Part shown: positions 2,883 to 18,543 of the stretch, piece by piece
How positions within the stretch are numbered: the first letter of the stretch is position 1
Layout: each line of letters opens with the position of its first letter
DNA from: Cuniculiplasma divulgatum
GTDB taxonomy: Archaea; Thermoplasmatota; Thermoplasmata; Thermoplasmatales; Thermoplasmataceae
NCBI RefSeq assembly: GCF_900083515.1
Contig: NZ_LT671858.1
Location: 120,001 to 152,000, forward strand
Length of the DNA: 32,000 nucleotides
Direction: 5' to 3'
Made by a program: the position numbers and the translations under genes
The notes under the pieces: generated by a model
The model's input: only the letters and a program-made list of their open reading frames with translations
Databases searched by the model: none
Told to the model about the DNA's origin: nothing

Positions 2883-3055
2883 GGTATTCCTTTTATGCTT
2901 CTATACCCCTGTTAGGAATAAACATTTCCAAACCTGATTAATCGCATCAGAAATGAAAATTCATAACCAAAGTTCTATTTTATGGAAAATGATTGAAAAT
3001 CGAACCATGTTTAAAGGCACCAGAAAATTTAAGCCATGCCTGTCCATGTAAATAT

Positions 3056-4648
3056 ATGTCAAACAGGTATGAATTGACCATAGACAAGATATTGATAAGC
3101 TCAGTGAGAAACAACCCTGACCAGATCATTTCTTACCAGGGAAGGGAAAACATAACATATAAAGAATTCAATGATAGGGTAAGAAACCTTGCATTTTCAT
3201 TATTAAAAATGGGTATCAGGAAGGGTGACAGGATCGCTGTGATTGACTGGGACACCACAAGATATCTGGAAGCATACTATGCAATTCCCATGATTGGGGC
3301 TGTACTGCACACTGTAAATATAAGATATCCACCTGAAATGATATTCTATTCCATGCAGCATGCAGAGGACAGATATGTGATCATAAGGGATGAATTCGTA
3401 CCTCTTATTGCACAGAATAAGGCTATGTTTTCTTTTATCAGAAAGTGGATTGTATATTCAGAAAGTGGAAAAATTCCAGGTACTTTAGAGCCTTCTGTGA
3501 ATTTTGATGATCTTGTAAAAAGCCAGGACCCTGTGAAACTTCCAGAAATAACAGAAGACACAATCGCAACAACTTTCTATACATCAGGAACAACAGGTCT
3601 TCCCAAGGGTGTTTCATTTACACACAGGCAGATTGTGCTACATGCACTGGCTTCCATAGCAGGACTCAGCGATCAGCCCATTGGATTGAAGAGCAGTGAT
3701 GTTATGATGCCCCTTGTACCCATGTTCCATGTTCATTCGTGGGGGATTCCATATTCCACCATAATGAAGGGAATGAAATATATTCTTCCTGGAAGATACG
3801 ATGTACCACTGATTCTCAGTATAATGAAGAAGGAAAAGGTCACTGTAAGTGCCATGGTTCCCTCAATCCTATACATGATCATAAGTAATCCAGATGCTTC
3901 CGGGGCGTTGAAAGAAAATCACCTGAAAGTCATAGTTGGAGGAGGGGCCATTCCAAAAGGGCTTGCAGTTAAGGCAAGCTCTATTGGGATCGATACAGTG
4001 GCCGGTTATGGAATGTCTGAAACCGCTCCAATTCTAACTCTTGGAACATATACACAGAAAGTCATGGAAATGGATGAACAGAAGAAATCTGAGTTCAGGA
4101 TAAAGACAGGTGTACCAATAAGTCTTGTTGATCTAAGGGTTGTTGATAGGGAAGGTAAGGAGGTTCCATGGGATACAAAATCAATTGGCGAAATAGTAGT
4201 CAGGGCACCATGGTTAACTCAGGAATACGTAAAGGATAAGGAAGGAACAGAAAAACTCTGGAATAACGGATGGATGCACACTGGCGATCTGGCAGTTGTT
4301 GACAGTTATGGTTATATATCAATAGTGGACAGGGAGAAGGACGCAGTAAAATCTGGAGGTGAATTCATCCCAACACTTGTTCTGGAGGATCTTATCAGTA
4401 CTGCTACAGGTGTAAATGAGGTTGCAGTTGTGGGAAGAAGTCATGAGAAATGGGGTGAAAGGCCTGTTGCCTTCATAACAGTAAATGATAAGTTCAACCT
4501 TGAAAACCTGAAAAAACATATGGAGTCATATGTTGAATCAGGAAGGATAGCCAAATTCTGGCTGCCGGATGATTATATGGTGATAAAGGAATTCACAAAG
4601 ACAAGTACTGGCAAGATAGACAAAAAACCACTGAGGAAAAATCTATAA
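3056..4648 (+). CDS. AMP-forming acyl-CoA synthetase / fatty-acid-CoA ligase
   Basis: Contains the AMP-binding signature FYTSGTTGLPKGV, then GYGMSETAP, the hinge region WMHTGDLA, and a C-terminal TSTGKIDKK. The track ORF starts at a TTG at 2993. The in-frame ATG at 3056 (MSNRYELTIDKIL) is the more plausible start. Confidence 0.88.
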   Translation: MSNRYELTIDKILISSVRNNPDQIISYQGRENITYKEFNDRVRNLAFSLLKMGIRKGDRIAVIDWDTTRYLEAYYAIPMIGAVLHTVNIRYPPEMIFYSMQHAEDRYVIIRDEFVPLIAQNKAMFSFIRKWIVYSESGKIPGTLEPSVNFDDLVKSQDPVKLPEITEDTIATTFYTSGTTGLPKGVSFTHRQIVLHALASIAGLSDQPIGLKSSDVMMPLVPMFHVHSWGIPYSTIMKGMKYILPGRYDVPLILSIMKKEKVTVSAMVPSILYMIISNPDASGALKENHLKVIVGGGAIPKGLAVKASSIGIDTVAGYGMSETAPILTLGTYTQKVMEMDEQKKSEFRIKTGVPISLVDLRVVDREGKEVPWDTKSIGEIVVRAPWLTQEYVKDKEGTEKLWNNGWMHTGDLAVVDSYGYISIVDREKDAVKSGGEFIPTLVLEDLISTATGVNEVAVVGRSHEKWGERPVAFITVNDKFNLENLKKHMESYVESGRIAKFWLPDDYMVIKEFTKTSTGKIDKKPLRKNL

Positions 4649-14821: not shown

Positions 14822-15493
14822 ATGAAAAGGGAGGACTTCCTAGAAAAGATAAACTATTTTCAACTGGAAGTTTTTAGCATACACGATGCAGCTAGAATCT
14901 TCGGCAAAAGTGAAAGGTATGTATCTAACAGGCTTTCTACTATTAAACAAATCAAGAGAATAATGAAAGGAATGTATTACGTAGAGGGTACGTCAGTATC
15001 CACCATTGCCTCAAGCATCATTTCACCTTCATATGTGAGTCTTATTTCTGCCTTCTATATTAGGGGCTCCACCACACAAATTCCTATAGAAATTCAGGTC
15101 ATTTCCCCTATCCAGCACAGGTCTCTTCTAATAGATCAGACAAGAATCATTTTCATTAAGTTGAGTAGGGGAAGAATATTTGGCTTTGAACGGACAGATG
15201 TTGGCATGGTAGCCACTCTTGAAAAGGCTATTGTTGATTCACTTTATCTGAACACCTTTATAGGTGAAACAGAAGAGGCTCTGCAAAACAATAGTGGATT
15301 GAATATTAACAGACTACTAGAATATGGAAAGCTCATGCATTCAGGTGCAACTGTAAACAGGTTAGGACACGTATTGGAGAAATTTGGATATGATTGTGAA
15401 GCTTTACTTAAATACAGATCAGAAAGGTACGTTAATTTTGGAGAATCAGGTAACCTAAAAGATTCTAAGTGGAGGGTAAAGTATGCTGAGTAG
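14822..15493 (+). CDS. abiEi: AbiEi-family antitoxin / transcriptional regulator (type IV TA system)
   Basis: 223 aa with an N-terminal wHTH-like segment (FSIHDAARIFGKSERYVSNRLSTIKQIKRIMKGMYY). This is followed by PSYVSLISAFYIRGSTTQIPIEIQVIS, typical of AbiEi proteins. The gene overlaps the downstream AbiEii gene by 11 nt. Confidence 0.7.
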   Translation: MKREDFLEKINYFQLEVFSIHDAARIFGKSERYVSNRLSTIKQIKRIMKGMYYVEGTSVSTIASSIISPSYVSLISAFYIRGSTTQIPIEIQVISPIQHRSLLIDQTRIIFIKLSRGRIFGFERTDVGMVATLEKAIVDSLYLNTFIGETEEALQNNSGLNINRLLEYGKLMHSGATVNRLGHVLEKFGYDCEALLKYRSERYVNFGESGNLKDSKWRVKYAE

Positions 15494-16226
15494 AGAGGAA
15501 CTATTAAGTGTACCCTTATCATTCAACGCCTACCAGAAAGAAAAAGACTATCTTCAGCATATAATTTTATCAAGGATATATGCAAATACAGGAAACCAAT
15601 TGATTTTCAAGGGTGGTACATCTCTCCAGAAATGCTGTGGCCTAAACAGGTTCTCAGAAGATCTAGATTTTACAGTTAAAGACAAATTAAGATCCGAGAA
15701 GATAGAACTCGCCTTGGCAGAAGTTAACCGTTACTATCCATCATCTTATTCAGGTTATAAAGCAGATCATTCAATGGGGTACATAATAAAGATTCATGGA
15801 CCTTTATATAAATCCCCCATATCATTGCAGACAATACGATTAGACATTAGCATGCGTGAGAAGGTAATCCTTCCATCTGTAAACTACAACATCATTCCCA
15901 TATATAGAGATCTTATGCCTTACTTGGTCATTGCAATGGACCTGAAGGAAGTATTCTCTGAGAAGATAAGGGCACTTTTGACAAGAAAAAAAGCAAGGGA
16001 CCTTTATGATATATATTTTCTGATAAAAAGAAACATAGCGCTCGACCTTAACTTAGTAGAAGAGAAAATGAAATTTTATAACAAAGCATATGAAGGAAAA
16101 GAAGCAGTTGAGAGGATCAGAAGCCTCAAAACTCAATGGGAAAAAGAAATTCCGGCACTGGTGTTTAACCCACCTCTGTATGACACTGTCTCTTCAGAAG
16201 TAATTGAATTTCTGCTTTCCTCTTAG
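15483..16226 (+). CDS. abiEii: AbiEii/AbiGii-family nucleotidyltransferase toxin (DUF1814)
   Basis: 247 aa with the family signature LIFKGGTSLQKCCGLNRFSEDLDFT (NTase G-G-[ST] plus DxD) and the later motif KIRALLTRKKARDLYDIYFL. An SD sequence, GGAGGGT, lies 5 nt upstream of the ATG, inside the abiEi coding region. Confidence 0.85.
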   Translation: MLSREELLSVPLSFNAYQKEKDYLQHIILSRIYANTGNQLIFKGGTSLQKCCGLNRFSEDLDFTVKDKLRSEKIELALAEVNRYYPSSYSGYKADHSMGYIIKIHGPLYKSPISLQTIRLDISMREKVILPSVNYNIIPIYRDLMPYLVIAMDLKEVFSEKIRALLTRKKARDLYDIYFLIKRNIALDLNLVEEKMKFYNKAYEGKEAVERIRSLKTQWEKEIPALVFNPPLYDTVSSEVIEFLLSS

Positions 16227-16261
16227 GATAATGAAAGAGTACTCTAGGTCTTAATTATGGA

Positions 16262-17149
16262 TCATGTGGTATTGTCTCCACTCCAGGACGGACCCTGAAC
16301 ACCACTGGCAGCCTTTTCCACAAGTTCAATTTCTTCCGGCGTCATTTTCCAGCCCATAGACCCTGCATTCTCCTTCACATGATCGGGATTTGATGCCCTA
16401 GGAATGGGATACACAAAGTCATATTTACTGAAAAACCAGTTGAGTGCAATTTGAGGCATGGTCTTCTTTCCATGATTCTTTTCAATTTCACTTAATACTT
16501 CCTTTCCCAGTGATGATTCAGACGTGAGCATTCCATGAGCAAGTGGATAATATGCAAGTATGGCAATACTGTTTTCCCTGCAGTACGGAACCAAATCTTT
16601 TTCTATATTTCTATGGGCAACGTTGAAGTTCATCTGTGTTGACTTGATCTCATATTTTTTCATGAACGAGACCGCCTCCTTTGTTTGCTCAAGATTGAAA
16701 TTGCTTATTCCTATGTGCCTAATCTTCCCCTCATCCTTAAGATGTTCCAGTCCTCTCAAAGCCTCCTTAACCTTATCGGCACTTGAATGCATATGAAGCT
16801 GGTACAGATCTATATAATCTGTCTGCAGTTTTCTCAGGCTCCTCTCACATGATTTGATAACTCCATCATATGAATAATGCAGTGGAAATACCTTGGTCGC
16901 TATAAAAAGTTCATCTCTTTTTCTTCCCTTCATGGCTTCAGCCACAAAGGGTTCTGTTTCATATATTTCTGCAGTGTCGATGAAATTAATGCCAGCATCT
17001 AAGGCAGCTTTTATTGCACTAAATCTCCTTTCCTTTCCGGGCCTTATCCTCAGAGTTTTTGCCAGACCTATCCATTTGAAATCATAATAGGTGCCAACAC
17101 CCATAGGTGTAATCATGGAATCAGTATTTCCAAACTTAACTTTCTCCAT
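16262..17149 (-). CDS. Aldo/keto reductase
   Basis: 295 aa. Contains GINFIDTAEIYE, the Lys region FIATKV, DLYQLHMH, and IRHIGISNF. This is the canonical AKR catalytic tetrad context. Confidence 0.9.
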   Translation of the reverse strand: MEKVKFGNTDSMITPMGVGTYYDFKWIGLAKTLRIRPGKERRFSAIKAALDAGINFIDTAEIYETEPFVAEAMKGRKRDELFIATKVFPLHYSYDGVIKSCERSLRKLQTDYIDLYQLHMHSSADKVKEALRGLEHLKDEGKIRHIGISNFNLEQTKEAVSFMKKYEIKSTQMNFNVAHRNIEKDLVPYCRENSIAILAYYPLAHGMLTSESSLGKEVLSEIEKNHGKKTMPQIALNWFFSKYDFVYPIPRASNPDHVKENAGSMGWKMTPEEIELVEKAASGVQGPSWSGDNTT

Positions 17150-17218
17150 GGTGGTTCATCTGTAAAGTACTTATAAAAGCTTTGTGAACTATTTTCTTAT
17201 TTAATATCAGGCATTGCT

Positions 17219-18119
17219 TTATACGTAAGATAAAAGTAGGTCACGGTTTTCCATGAGCCATTTTCTCTTTTCTTTCCAGTTCGGCATAATTTTTTCCACC
17301 TCATTCCAGAACAACTTTCCATGGGCAGCAATTTTTGTATGAACAAGCTCATGGATGATCACGTAATCTATTACTCCAACAGGAGCCATTGCCAGTAGAA
17401 GCGTGAATCTTAATATGGTTTTGTTACTACAGCTCCCCCACGTTCTTGTTGCACTTCCTACAGAAAATGAGGAGTAATTACAGTTTATTCTGCTGGAAAA
17501 TGCATTTAATCTCTCATCAAAATAACTTTGTAATGCATTACGGTAGAAATGCTTGAAAACCTTTCTTCCTTTGTCCTTACAGTTCTCTGAAAGATTGAAA
17601 AAACCATCGAAGGATAAACATTTACTATCCTTTACTATCTTAATCTCATACTCTTTTCCAAATAGCAGATGTTTCTCCCCATCCTCAAATCTGACATTTT
17701 TCTTCATTTCTATCGCTTTGTCAAATTTTTCCTTTGTTTTTCTCATCCAACTGGCGTTTGTGTCCAGAAAAATATCAATCTGAGTGCCTGTTACCACCGT
17801 TTAAGCAGAAAGCCCACGACTTAAGTCGTGGGATGAATGCGAAACTCTTAATATGGTAGAAAGTGTATCTAATCCAGTACCGCAGGGCATGCGGGATTTG
17901 AAGCCTGATAAGCTGCCCGAAAGGGATAGTGAGAGATGGAGTAAGCCCTCTGGATCGGATGAAAGGGGCACTGTCAATGAAGCAGGAACCTCACAAGCTT
18001 TAGCTGTGGGAGGATGTCAGATGACTGGATACTCTGAGAGAAAAGGCGCCATCACTTTTTAATCTCAGAACCATGTATTTCCTTTTCCCTCTCACTTTTA
18101 TAATCTCAACATTGATCAT
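17219..18119 (-). pseudogene. DUF45 / YgjP-like (M48-related, HExxH) metallopeptidase gene interrupted by a 238-bp insertion
   Basis: The N-terminal module MINVEIIKVRGKRKYMVLRLKSDGAFSLRV runs from the ATG at 18119-18117 to codon GTA at 18032-18030 (part of ORF 18000..18197). The remainder, TGTQIDIFLDTNASWMRK...VIIHELVHTK...FW, is in ORF 17219..17797, in a different frame. Deleting 17795..18032 joins them in frame into a 220-aa protein of typical DUF45 size. Confidence 0.7.
17795..18032 (+). mobile_element. Non-autonomous IS200/IS605-like insertion (PATE/MITE-like), GC-rich and highly structured; may encode an omega/reRNA-like RNA
   Basis: About 50% GC against mid-30s % in the flanks. On the + strand it is inserted immediately 3' of TTAC (17791..17794). 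A perfect hairpin CCCACGAC-TTAA-GTCGTGGG (17813..17832) begins 18 nt inside the left end, with AAAG directly 5' of its foot. The element ends in ATAC. No target duplication is needed for in-frame restoration of the host gene. Further helices: a CCC-GAAA-GGG tetraloop hairpin at 17916..17925, a hairpin at 17880..17894, and a long-range 7-bp pairing of 17872..17878 with 18024..18030. No ORF of plausible function lies inside. Confidence 0.45.
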
Positions 18120-18207
18120 CTTATTTCCTGTATAGAGGATCGGATAATTACAGGGTAAATAGGGTTTTTCATTGCTGTTACCATAATCAACCTGCACTGG
18201 GTGAAAA

Positions 18208-18543
18208 CTACTTCTCTTTGAAAATTAGTTTCATCAATTCAGCATAGGTGGAATATGCCTCCTTTCCCTTATCAGTAATTGTTACTGAGATACTGGGGCC
18301 TTTCCTCTTAAGAACAGTCTTCACAGACACCAATCCACTCTCCTGAAGTTTATCCAGATGATTGCTCAGACTCCCCTTTCCACAGGATGTAACTGCCATT
18401 AGTTCCTTGAGATTCATCCTTCCGTTGATTGCCAGTGAGAGCAGTATTATCAGTCTTGCAGTGGACTTCATAACTGGTTCCTTCAAGTTATTTCCCAGTT
18501 TCTCAAGGAGCTGTGCAACTCTCTCATCACCCAATTCAATCAA
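18208..18543 (-). CDS. Winged-helix (ArsR/MarR-like) transcriptional regulator, last gene of the ABC operon
   Basis: 111 aa. STARLIILLSLAINGRMNLKELMAVTSCGKGSLSNHLDKLQESGLVSVK is a typical HTH plus wing. It overlaps the upstream gene by 8 nt. The start is a TTG, so the exact start is uncertain. Confidence 0.72.
   Translation of the reverse strand: MIELGDERVAQLLEKLGNNLKEPVMKSTARLIILLSLAINGRMNLKELMAVTSCGKGSLSNHLDKLQESGLVSVKTVLKRKGPSISVTITDKGKEAYSTYAELMKLIFKEK

What the first reader, a model, noticed from the sequence alone, without database searches (positions are those of the whole stretch)
17219..18119. DUF45/YgjP-type metallopeptidase gene split by an insertion that can be removed cleanly in frame
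Two minus-strand ORFs in different frames carry complementary parts of one DUF45 protein. ORF 18000..18197 holds the N-terminal strand module (MINVEIIKVRGKRKYMVLRLKSDGAFSLRV). ORF 17219..17797 holds TGTQIDIFLDTNASWMRK and everything through the HELVHTK zinc site. After RV the upstream frame reads only SSHLTSSHS and then a stop. Just upstream of TGTQ the downstream frame is closed by a TAA. Deleting exactly 17795..18032 (238 nt) joins codon AGA (18035-18033) to GTA-ACA (17794-17789). The result is ...AFSLRVTGTQIDIFL... and a 220-aa protein of normal family length. On the + strand both junctions carry TAC (cctgTTAC| on the left, ggaTAC| at the right end of the insert).
Basis: partly seen in the sequence, partly recalled or inferred. 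Interest (0 to 1): 0.7.

Follow-up and report, generated by a model that had tools for sequence, protein, structure and literature searches.

The report
Miniature IS605-type transposon splitting a gene
A metallopeptidase-like gene of the acid-loving archaeon Cuniculiplasma divulgatum is interrupted by a 226-base, protein-less relative of IS200/IS605 insertion sequences that appears to carry only a guide-RNA gene; this is a well-known kind of mobile element, so the finding is real but ordinary.

Summary
The split gene is real. Three syntenic orthologues carry one uninterrupted 224-aa YgjP-like (DUF45) gene. They place the insert at 17795..18020 (226 nt), not 17795..18032. The restored protein reads ...FSLRVSSH|VTGTQ... 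and is 224 aa.

The insert is a miniature IS200/IS605-family element (a PATE), lying on the + strand, antisense to the gene:
- It sits immediately 3' of TTAC and made no target duplication.
- It has no terminal inverted repeats.
- It has similar hairpins just inside both ends.
- It has AAAG 5' of the left hairpin, the IS608 guide for TTAC.
- It ends in GATGTCAG.

Copies with the same ends occur in other Thermoplasmata genomes. Full-length elements with the same ends encode TnpB, and one sits 2 kb away in most sampled members of this population.

The interior (17876..18020) matches the tnpB 3' end plus right end of those elements and shows strong covariation. It is most likely an omega (guide) RNA scaffold with its own TATA-like promoter.

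Removal would be by DNA excision, not RNA splicing. No TnpA transposase was found in the DNA I could inspect. This is a new member of a known kind, of low to moderate interest.

The parts
18021..18119 (-). 5' fragment of the YgjP-like (DUF45) gene: codons 1-33, MINVEIIKVRGKRKYMVLRLKSDGAFSLRVSSH. After the insertion the frame runs on for 6 codons (LTSSHS) to a TAA at 18000-18002.
   Evidence: It aligns with the N-termini of the intact orthologues P0001-P0003 and with their DNA.
17219..17794 (-). 3' fragment of the same gene: codons 34-224 plus the stop, VTGTQIDIFL...HELVHT...LLSYV*. Gene callers give it a 175- or 192-aa ORF. The 192-aa version starts at a GTG (17795-17797) supplied by the inserted element.
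   Evidence: Pfam PF01863 YgjP-like, E=3e-46. Alignments. Gene calls. No additional stops or frameshifts, and no excess of lineage-specific changes.
17795..18020 (+). The 226-nt miniature IS200/IS605-family element (PATE), with its top strand on the window's + strand. It runs CACCGTTTAAGCAG...GGAGGATGTCAG. It has no terminal inverted repeats, made no target duplication, and is 49% G+C against 36% for the host gene.
   Evidence: Boundaries from the empty sites in L001-L003. Composition. Related copies in L062, L093, L108, L120, L008 and L061. The identical copy sits at the same site in L124-L127.
17791..17794 (+). TTAC target site, which belongs to the host gene (GTAA on the coding strand). It is the site 3' of which the element inserted, and the expected transposon-adjacent motif (TAM) for a TnpB nuclease.
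   Evidence: Present in all three empty sites. TTAC also abuts the left end in L062, L108, the L008 IS, the L124 IS and the L130 IS. IS608 uses TTAC (PMC5027513).
17809..17812 (+). AAAG, the tetranucleotide immediately 5' of the left-end hairpin foot. It is the inferred left guide sequence that reads the TTAC target.
   Evidence: [quoted passage not shown] 5' to the LE hairpin foot' (PMC5027513). L120 has CAAG here and abuts TGAC instead.
17813..17832 (+). Left-end hairpin just inside the terminus, CCCACGACTT/AAGTCGTGGG. It is a perfect 10-bp stem, 18 nt in from the left terminus.
   Evidence: Compensatory changes among copies are seen in helix 1.
17848..17854 (+). TATA-like box TTAATAT (inferred archaeal promoter). 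It lies about 26 nt upstream of the start of the conserved structured block. In full-length elements the equivalent TTTATT/TTTATC box lies about 30 nt upstream of the tnpB ATG.
   Evidence: Sequence inspection only. This is inference; no transcription data.
17876..18020 (+). Conserved structured interior: the inferred omega (guide) RNA scaffold, homologous to the tnpB 3' end plus right end of full-length elements. The 69-aa ORF 17853..18062 that gene callers place here (CSP5_0144) is most likely a remnant or a spurious call.
   Evidence: Covariance model R1, built from miniature copies only, hits the tnpB 3' ends full length in L008, L134, L127 and L130 (E 3e-12 to 4e-8). Covariation: 15 of 37 and 22 of 37 pairs change on both sides, and 93-94% of cells pair against 36-49% when partners are slid. 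No Pfam hit for the ORF.
17989..18013 (+). Right-end imperfect hairpin CCTCACAAGC-TTTA-GCTGTGGGAGG, preceded by AAGCAGGAA. It has the same layout and orientation as the left end and lies 7 nt from the right terminus (...ATGTCAG|).
   Evidence: (direct-repeat families D1 and D3). Compensatory changes in helix 6.
18021..18040 (+). Flanking host DNA, ATGACTGGATACTCTGAGAG. It would form the guide segment of a read-through omega RNA. It is identical to the sequence next to TTAC in the empty allele of L001.
   Evidence: The role is inferred from how TnpB/omega-RNA systems work (PMC8612924, PMC10055086).

Best explanation
The YgjP-like gene of this Cuniculiplasma divulgatum / G-plasma genome was hit by a 226-nt non-autonomous member of the IS200/IS605 family (a palindrome-associated transposable element, PATE).

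Shown:
- The element lies on the + strand, immediately 3' of a TTAC in the gene.
- It made no target duplication and has no terminal inverted repeats.
- It carries similar hairpins just inside both ends.
- It has the AAAG guide 5' of the left hairpin.
- It shares both termini with 1.3-kb elements that encode TnpB.
- Its interior is homologous to the tnpB 3' end plus right end and has a covarying secondary structure.
- A near-identical strain (L001) has the empty site.

Inferred:
- It moved by single-strand 'peel and paste' transposition, catalysed in trans by a Y1 (HUH) TnpA that recognises the hairpins and cleaves after TTAC and after ...GTCAG.
- The element is essentially a left end, the former tnpB promoter, an omega-RNA scaffold and a right end.
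- Transcription from the TATA-like box would give an RNA whose 3' part reads into the flank (ATGACTGG...).
- That RNA could guide a TnpB supplied in trans to cut the empty TTAC-ATGACTGG... allele, which would favour retention or spread of the insertion.

Consequences for the host gene:
- The N-terminal 33 codons are cut off from the catalytic part.
- Precise TnpA excision would restore the 224-aa gene exactly, which is why the insert 'can be removed cleanly'.
For: Boundaries, absence of a duplication and the TTAC target come from three empty sites.

End architecture: direct-repeat families D1 and D3 and hairpin I5, the end folds and exact coordinates.

Other copies share the GATGTCAG| terminus, have unrelated flanks, and abut TTAC.

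Full-length parents with the same ends:
- L008 7-1300, whose TnpB matches Pfam HTH_OrfB_IS605, OrfB_IS605 and Cas12f1-like_TNB.
- The L124 IS, whose left end is 91% and right end 87% identical to the miniature element's.
- The L130 IS.

The same-population TnpB is annotated as IS605 OrfB of Thermoplasmatales archaeon Gpl.

The covariance model built from miniature copies hits tnpB 3' ends full length.

A pattern derived only from the insert's two ends retrieved tnpB right ends in 63 bacterial and archaeal loci.

The insertion is present in many independent assemblies and in a C. divulgatum record. The empty allele is in L001, which is 100% identical to the window over 14850-16200.

Literature:
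- AAAG reads TTAC in IS608 (PMC5027513).
- PATEs lack inverted repeats and target duplications, have near-terminal palindromes, and the distance from terminus to palindrome is longer at the 5' end (PMC3119063).
- PATEs 'often encode omega RNAs' used by TnpB in trans (PMC10055086).
- IS200/605 elements are listed in Cuniculiplasma genomes (PMC5155288).
Against: No Y1 transposase (TnpA) was found:
- none in the window;
- none next to any of the tnpB copies inspected;
- none by a motif scan of the fetched archaeal loci.
The mobilising enzyme is therefore assumed, not seen.

Other weaknesses:
- No second copy of the element is present in the 32-kb window, and I could not scan the whole genome.
- The closest full-length parent of the interior was not found. 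Resident tnpB elements score only 42-59 bits against the model, against 158-174 bits for the closest miniature copies. The resident TnpB may not accept this RNA.
- The single-sequence folding energy of 17876-18020 is no better than that of shuffles (z=+0.30), so the structural support rests on covariation only.
- Alignment A4 was fitted to the model's structure, which inflates its pair counts.
- No Rfam family matches.
- Transcription, RNA ends and excision are untested.
Confidence: 0.9

Rival explanations
1. The insert is an intron removed at the RNA level, either an archaeal bulge-helix-bulge intron cut by the tRNA splicing endonuclease or a small self-splicing group I intron. On this view the gene is still functional.
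For: The insert length is 3n+1 and removal restores the frame. On the sense strand the upstream exon ends in U and the insert ends in G, as in group I introns. The two gene halves show no decay. The insert is richer in G+C than the gene.
Against: No bulge-helix-bulge motif forms at the junctions. No group I or II intron model, nor any other Rfam model, reaches threshold, and none appears even at E<=10 apart from a hairpin-only hit. The conserved covarying structure is on the antisense (+) strand and includes G-U pairs. Homologous copies lie in unrelated flanks and at the 3' ends of tnpB genes, always next to TTAC. A sense-strand fold is no better than that of shuffles.
Confidence: 0.02
2. The insert is a classical cut-and-paste MITE mobilised by a DDE transposase, or an unrelated repeat that merely resembles IS605 ends.
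For: It is short, non-coding, and present in several related genomes.
Against: It has no terminal inverted repeats and made no target-site duplication. The two ends are direct, not inverted, copies of one motif (families D1 and D3). Insertion is always 3' of TTAC or TGAC. The ends and interior are shared with tnpB elements.
Confidence: 0.02
3. The element is an inert fossil: an IS605-derived insertion that can no longer move and makes no functional RNA. The gene is simply a pseudogene fixed by drift.
For: No TnpA was found. There is no second copy in the window. The insertion is identical and apparently fixed across many samples. Resident TnpB elements have a rather different 3' scaffold. Folding energy is unremarkable. 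At least one relative (L061) has clearly decayed, having lost its left hairpin.
Against: Both hairpins, the AAAG guide, the TTAC flank and the GATGTCAG terminus are all intact. The interior keeps its helices through compensatory changes across copies that are 73-85% identical, which implies selection on the structure in the lineage of elements. A same-population tnpB element with 87-91% identical ends is polymorphic, so it moved recently. The gene halves show no decay.
Confidence: 0.25
4. Assembly or sequencing artefact: foreign DNA joined into the gene by mis-assembly.
For: The composition of the insert differs from the gene.
Against: The identical insert sits at the identical site in L125-L127 and, up to its contig end, in L124. 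Further assemblies from NCBI, JGI and Logan show the same split gene in their gene tables. The boundaries are exact to the base and obey the family's target rule.
Confidence: 0.005

Closest known systems
PATEs (palindrome-associated transposable elements), the protein-less derivatives of IS200/IS605 elements first defined in Haloquadratum walsbyi (PMC3119063) and later seen in Geobacillus stearothermophilus (PMC10055086)
   Same: No terminal inverted repeats, near-terminal palindromes at both ends, no target duplication, and too short to encode a transposase. The ends are shared with tnpB (IS1341-type) elements. The terminus-to-palindrome distance is longer at the 5' end (18 nt against 7 nt here). 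The interior is derived from the 3' part of the parent. PATEs are reported to often encode omega RNAs.
   Different: This is a different lineage (Thermoplasmata, acid mine drainage), with no detectable sequence relationship tested against the haloarchaeal or Geobacillus families. Here the retained interior appears to be a complete promoter-plus-scaffold unit, rather than only fused termini like the 52-bp Haloquadratum forms. The copy number in the host genome is unknown.
IS608 of Helicobacter pylori (the IS200/IS605 family model for single-strand 'peel and paste' transposition)
   Same: TTAC target at the left flank, AAAG guide 5' of the left hairpin foot, and seamless insertion and excision. 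The spacer between the cleavage site and the left hairpin is about 18-19 nt, with a shorter spacer at the right end. (The IS608 spacer values are from my own knowledge of the Barabas and Guynet work, not checked here.)
   Different: IS608 carries tnpA and tnpB and ends in TCAA (from my own knowledge). This element has no gene and ends in TCAG. No sequence similarity was tested.
IS1341-type (tnpB-only) IS200/IS605 elements of archaea, here the 1.29-kb element of 'Thermoplasmatales archaeon Gpl' (P0033) and its relatives in L008 and L130
   Same: Same left and right termini (87-91% identical over the terminal 44-47 nt), the same TTAC target, and the same position of the TATA-like box. The 3' scaffold region is homologous and detected by the covariance model.
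   Different: Those elements encode a 389-aa TnpB. The miniature element has lost the whole reading frame except a C-terminal remnant. Its scaffold is about 15 nt longer and diverged (42-59 bits against 158-174 bits for the closest miniature copies).
TnpB omega RNAs / reRNAs (ISDra2 and relatives; PMC8612924, PMC10055086; archaeal examples in PMC12558985)
   Same: Encoded at the tnpB 3' end and right end, structured, and followed directly by flanking DNA that would serve as the guide. The TAM equals the transposon's target site.
   Different: No expression or binding data exist here. No Rfam family matches. The RNA would be encoded without its nuclease and would depend on a TnpB in trans.

Membership tests
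IS200/IS605 family (non-autonomous derivative, PATE) | No terminal inverted repeats; instead similar hairpins just inside both ends, in the same orientation on one (top) strand | tested here: met
   The repeat finder found no terminal inverted repeat. Direct-repeat families D1 and D3 link the two ends, and I5 is a perfect left hairpin. Both hairpins keep pairing through compensatory changes.
IS200/IS605 family (non-autonomous derivative, PATE) | Insertion without target-site duplication | tested here: met
   Empty sites in L001-L003 read ...GTTAC|AT... (CCTGTTAC|ATGACTGG in L001). The window reads ...GTTAC[226 nt]ATGACTGG with nothing duplicated.
IS200/IS605 family (non-autonomous derivative, PATE) | Insertion 3' of a fixed 4-5-nt target that stays at the left flank | tested here: met
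   TTAC abuts the left end in the window (the L124 miniature copy is the same insertion), L062, L108, the L008 IS, the L124 IS and the L130 IS. L120 abuts TGAC.
IS200/IS605 family (non-autonomous derivative, PATE) | Guide tetranucleotide 5' of the left hairpin foot that matches the target (AAAG for TTAC in IS608) | tested here: met
   AAAG at 17809-17812, directly 5' of the hairpin. The rule is from PMC5027513. L120 has CAAG with a TGAC target, which is suggestive of co-variation, but it is a single case.
IS200/IS605 family (non-autonomous derivative, PATE) | Termini shared with full-length elements that encode TnpB and/or TnpA | tested here: met
   The L008, L124/L127 and L130 elements have the same ends and a 389-aa TnpB with the three Pfam domains.
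IS200/IS605 family (non-autonomous derivative, PATE) | A Y1 (HUH) TnpA transposase available in the cell to mobilise it | tested here: inconclusive
   None in the window, none next to the tnpB copies, and none by motif scan of the fetched loci. The whole genome could not be searched. IS200/605 elements are reported for Cuniculiplasma genomes without saying which genes they carry (PMC5155288).
IS200/IS605 family (non-autonomous derivative, PATE) | Too short to encode a transposase | tested here: met
   The element is 226 nt. The only ORF (69 aa, running into the flank) has no Pfam match.
IS200/IS605 family (non-autonomous derivative, PATE) | Evidence of mobility (filled and empty sites among close relatives; excision) | tested here: inconclusive
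   Filled and empty alleles exist (window against L001, which is 100% identical over 14850-16200). However, the local haplotypes differ by 6-10%, so this is not a very recent event. Excision itself cannot be tested with these tools.
TnpB omega RNA (guide RNA of IS200/IS605 elements) | Encoded at the 3' end of tnpB and the right end, ending at the transposon boundary | tested here: met
   Model R1, built from miniature copies, matches positions 1-145 on the last ~130 nt of the tnpB elements and ends exactly at GATGTCAG|.
TnpB omega RNA (guide RNA of IS200/IS605 elements) | Conserved secondary structure supported by covariation | tested here: met
   15 of 37 pairs (A2) and 22 of 37 pairs (A4) change on both sides. 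93-94% of cells pair, against 36-49% when partners are slid. 0 of 500 shuffles reach the observed value on four of five measures for A2 and on all five for A4. Caveats: few independent sequences, A4 was fitted to the model, and the single-sequence energy is not exceptional.
TnpB omega RNA (guide RNA of IS200/IS605 elements) | Transcribed, bound by TnpB, and directing cleavage next to the TAM | not testable with these tools
   Only a TATA-like box at 17848-17854 at the right distance from the conserved block. No RNA data.
Archaeal bulge-helix-bulge intron | Two 3-nt bulges separated by a 4-bp helix, placing both splice sites | tested here: not met
   A fold of the joined junction contexts shows no such motif at either junction.
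Group I / group II self-splicing intron | Match to the conserved catalytic core | tested here: not met
   No Rfam hit at the gathering threshold in the window. No intron family appears at E<=10 in 17600-18250.
Classical MITE (DDE transposon derivative) | Terminal inverted repeats and a target-site duplication | tested here: not met
YgjP-like / DUF45 metallopeptidase (the host gene) | PF01863 domain with the HExxH zinc motif, as a single polypeptide of about 220-250 aa | tested here: met
   PF01863 E=1.5e-46 on the joined product. HELVH is invariant in the alignment. Orthologues are 224-250 aa and uninterrupted.

The most novel reading that the evidence does not exclude
The 226-nt element is a self-contained 'guide-only' selfish gene made of a left end, a promoter, an omega-RNA scaffold and a right end. 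It borrows both TnpA and TnpB from other elements. Its read-through guide (ATGACTGGATACTCTG...) directs TnpB to cut the empty TTAC-ATGACTGG allele that still circulates in a near-identical co-occurring lineage (L001). The filled/empty polymorphism in acid-mine-drainage Cuniculiplasma would then be a natural, observable case of RNA-guided drive by a protein-less element, in a cultivable archaeon.
Probability: 0.3. Interest if true: 0.5.

Novelty: new member of a known kind. Interest (0 to 1): 0.25.

Why it matters
There is mainly an annotation lesson. The two ORF fragments and the 69-aa 'hypothetical protein' CSP5_0144 in Cuniculiplasma divulgatum records are one YgjP-like gene interrupted by a mobile element.

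The element also adds a Thermoplasmata family to the known PATEs, with base-exact boundaries, target, guide tetranucleotide and a covariation-supported RNA structure. Because C. divulgatum is cultured, the site is a convenient natural test bed for three questions: whether a guide-RNA-only element is expressed, whether it is served in trans by a resident TnpB, and whether it excises precisely.

It does not reveal a new mechanism.

Tried and rejected
- **Rfam:** a gathering-threshold scan of the whole window and a permissive scan of 17600-18250 found nothing but a hairpin-only partial match to Acido-Lenti-1, below threshold.
- **tRNA/tmRNA scan:** none.
- **Second copy in the window:** none found by blastn.
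- **Single-sequence folding:** neither strand of the insert, nor the scaffold alone, folds better than shuffles.
- **Bulge-helix-bulge test:** negative.
- **Exact-product look-up of the 192-aa fragment:** not on record, because of a few SNPs.
- **Viral-contig scan for the right-end motif:** no hits.
- **Metagenome-contig scan with an interior pattern:** only one hit (L124), which turned out to be the same locus.
- **Genome-contig scan:** I first took these for noise, then showed they are genuine tnpB right ends.
- **Search for TnpA:** the 136-aa ORF upstream of tnpB in L130-L135 is not a Y1 transposase (weak HVO_A0563_N match), and a motif scan found none.
- **Closer tnpB parent:** searching with the 69-aa remnant ORF returned only three short ORF clusters.
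- **Relaxed selection on the split gene:** no signal.
- **Two paper runs** failed on a syntax rule.
Full report
**1. The observation**

On the minus strand, ORF 18000..18197 contains MINVEIIKVRGKRKYMVLRLKSDGAFSLRV (ATG at 18119). It then reads SSHLTSSHS and stops. ORF 17219..17797 reads (M)VTGTQIDIFL... through HELVHT to the stop.

The downstream ORF is a YgjP-like protein (PF01863, E=3e-46, profile positions 24-206 of 207). The 39-aa upstream piece is too short to score alone. However, any deletion of length 3n+1 between the two stops would do the same, so the exact boundaries needed outside evidence.

**2. The true junction**

A protein search found full-length homologues at 87%, 81% and 67% identity (P0001-P0003). 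The nearest named relative is from Cuniculiplasma.

Their contigs (L001-L003) have the same gene order as the window: ABC transporter, two membrane proteins, an HTH regulator, the YgjP-like gene, and an aldo-keto reductase. Each has a single uninterrupted gene.

The proteins read ...FSLRVSSH|VTG.... The DNA reads ...AGTCAT|GTAACAG... where the window has ...AGTCAT[226 nt]GTAACAG....

- The insert is therefore exactly 17795..18020.
- The restored protein has 224 residues, like P0002 and P0003.
- On the + strand the empty site is CCTGTTAC|ATGACTGG, and nothing is duplicated.

**3. Anatomy of the insert**

The insert is 49% G+C, against 36% for the gene. Purine skew flips to the + strand inside it. 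It has no terminal inverted repeats. Both ends carry the same motif in the same orientation on the + strand:

| End | Layout on the + strand |
|---|---|
| Left | TTAC\|, 14 nt, AAAG, then a perfect 10-bp hairpin at 17813-17832 |
| Right | AAGCAGGAA, an imperfect hairpin at 17989-18013, then ATGTCAG\| |

This is the IS200/IS605 layout. In IS608 the TTAC target is read by the tetranucleotide AAAG 5' of the left hairpin foot (PMC5027513). The same four bases occupy that position here.

**4. Relatives**

A pattern fitting both ends retrieved copies in several Thermoplasmata MAGs.

- Four near-full-length copies (73-85% identical) and several partial ones share the terminus ...GATGTCAG| and then have unrelated flanks.
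- Their left flanks end in TTAC, or in TGAC in L120, whose guide reads CAAG.
- L008 holds a full-length element: TTAC|, a similar left end, a 389-aa TnpB (Pfam HTH_OrfB_IS605, OrfB_IS605, Cas12f1-like TNB), and a right end ...GAGGATGTCAG|.
- L130 has another such element, again after TTAC.
- The many actinomycete hits of the same scan looked at first like noise. They are genuine tnpB right ends: in 63 of 64 loci with a TnpB C-terminal match, the motif lies just downstream, ending ...GGATGTCAA|.

So a pattern taken only from this insert blindly finds tnpB 3' ends in both bacteria and archaea.

**5. The same population**

L124 (ACXJ01010619.1) and L125-L129, L136 and L137 are about 99% identical to the window.

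- The 226-nt element is identical and at the same site in L125-L127. L124 carries it up to its contig end. The gene tables of L128, L129, L136 and L137 show the same split gene.
- The 69-aa ORF that gene callers place inside it equals 'hypothetical protein CSP5_0144 [Cuniculiplasma divulgatum]'. It is indexed in 103 sample blocks.
- An assembly artefact is therefore excluded. The organism is C. divulgatum / G-plasma.
- Those contigs also carry a 1.29-kb tnpB element inside the AbiEii-family gene 2 kb away, after TTAC at window 15670-15673. Its left end is 91% and its right end 87% identical to those of the miniature element. The window lacks that element.
- Its TnpB is annotated as IS605 OrfB of 'Thermoplasmatales archaeon Gpl'.
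- IS200/605 elements are reported for Cuniculiplasma genomes (PMC5155288).

**6. The interior is most likely a guide RNA**

RNAalifold on eight copies predicts six helices, and 15 of 37 pairs change on both sides. With controls:

- 94% of cells pair, against 36-49% when partners are slid by 1-3 columns.
- No shuffle out of 500 reaches the observed value for four of the five measures.

A covariance model built from six miniature interiors alone (window 17876-18020) matches, over its full length, the last ~130 nt of the tnpB elements in L008, L134, L127 and L130 (E from 3e-12 to 4e-8). The matches end exactly at the transposon boundary.

On the combined alignment, 22 of 37 pairs change on both sides and 93% of cells pair. 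That alignment was fitted to the model's structure, which favours it.

G-U pairs make the structure specific to the + strand, which is antisense to the host gene. This is where TnpB guide (omega) RNAs are encoded (PMC8612924). PATEs 'often encode omega RNAs' that need TnpB in trans (PMC10055086).

A TATA-like TTAATAT at 17848-17854 lies about 26 nt before the conserved block. It corresponds to the TTTATT/TTTATC box upstream of tnpB in the full-length elements. This is inference only.

Caveats:
- The single-sequence folding energy is not better than shuffles (z=+0.30).
- No Rfam family matches.
- The resident tnpB elements score far lower against the model than the miniature copies do.

**7. 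Mechanism**

Shown:
- Seamless insertion 3' of TTAC.
- IS605-type ends.
- Kinship with tnpB elements.
- A conserved RNA-like structure.
- Filled and empty alleles. L001 is 100% identical to the window over 14850-16200 but has the empty site.

Inferred:
- Single-strand transposition by a Y1 TnpA acting in trans.
- Transcription of a guide RNA that reads into the flank (ATGACTGGATACTCTGAGAG, identical in the empty allele of L001).
- Cutting of the empty site by a TnpB supplied in trans.

No TnpA was found in any DNA I could inspect. This is the main gap.

The host gene shows no further damage and no excess of lineage-specific changes. The window's lineage has 10 amino-acid changes against 12 for L001, and dN/dS against L002 is 0.29. 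The insertion is therefore either not old relative to the gene's divergence, or too recent to have left a mark.

**8. Rivals**

- **Intron (bulge-helix-bulge or group I):** there is no junction motif and no model match. The structure is on the wrong strand, and copies sit in unrelated contexts.
- **Classical MITE:** there are no inverted repeats and no duplication.
- **Artefact:** excluded (section 5).
- **Inert fossil:** this cannot be excluded for this particular copy. All its functional motifs are intact, and the element family keeps its structure by compensatory change.

**9. Comparison and verdict**

The element meets the definition of a PATE: no inverted repeats, near-terminal palindromes, no target duplication, too short for a transposase, and a longer terminus-to-palindrome distance at the 5' end (PMC3119063). 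It also follows the IS608 target and guide rule.

It is a new member of a known kind. The boundaries and the hint at RNA-level joining were not.

Noticed in passing
window 15670-15924 (inside the AbiEii-family ORF 15483..16226); L124 2091-3382; L125-L129 about 2920-4210: In most sampled members of this population a 1.29-kb tnpB element sits after the TTAC at 15670-15673. Its right flank resumes right after another TTAC (15920-15923), so 251 bp between the two target sites is missing. The window and L001 have the intact gene. One possibility is two insertions followed by recombination between the copies. The first 10 nt of the right flank also carry 3 SNPs.
   Followed up: partly
window 14850-18310 compared with L001: L001 is 100% identical to the window from 14850 to about 16200. 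Identity then falls stepwise to about 90% next to the insertion site and is 94-96% on the other side. The filled and empty alleles are therefore distinct haplotypes in a mosaic (recombining) background, not a very recent insertion in an otherwise identical strain.
   Followed up: partly
L120 330-415: This copy abuts TGAC instead of TTAC, and its tetranucleotide 5' of the left hairpin is CAAG instead of AAAG. This may be co-variation of target and guide, as the IS608 model predicts. It is a single case. The sister copy L093 is cut off at the edge of the fetched chunk.
   Followed up: partly
L061 2756-2985 (minus strand): This is a copy of the L108-type miniature element that keeps TTAC and the first 14 nt but has lost the left hairpin by an internal deletion. 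It is presumably an immobilised fossil.
   Followed up: partly
L004-L123 (actinomycete loci, e.g. L012 6738-6767, L020 3056-3085): Dozens of Nonomuraea, Streptosporangium and Streptomyces loci carry ...GTGAAGCAGGAAnCC-hairpin-GTGGGAAT-second hairpin-GGATGTCAA| directly downstream of tnpB. The GAAGCAGGAA...GATGTCA(A/G) right-end signature is thus conserved between bacterial and archaeal tnpB elements.
   Followed up: partly
window 17905-17910 with 18015-18020: An invariant long-range pairing CUGAUA/UGUCAG closes the predicted scaffold and includes the last six bases of the element, which is the right cleavage site. It never varies among the miniature copies, so covariation says nothing about it. 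In the tnpB elements it is partly broken.
   Followed up: no
window 17853-18062 (+): Public records annotate a 69-aa 'hypothetical protein' (CSP5_0144 in C. divulgatum) that lies inside the miniature element and runs 42 nt into the flank. It has no Pfam match and resembles a tnpB C-terminal remnant, so it is probably not a real gene.
   Followed up: partly
L130 2511-2935: A tnpB element inserted at a TTAC two codons before the end of a 136-aa ORF (weak HVO_A0563_N match). The ORF's stop codon is now supplied by the element's left end.
   Followed up: no
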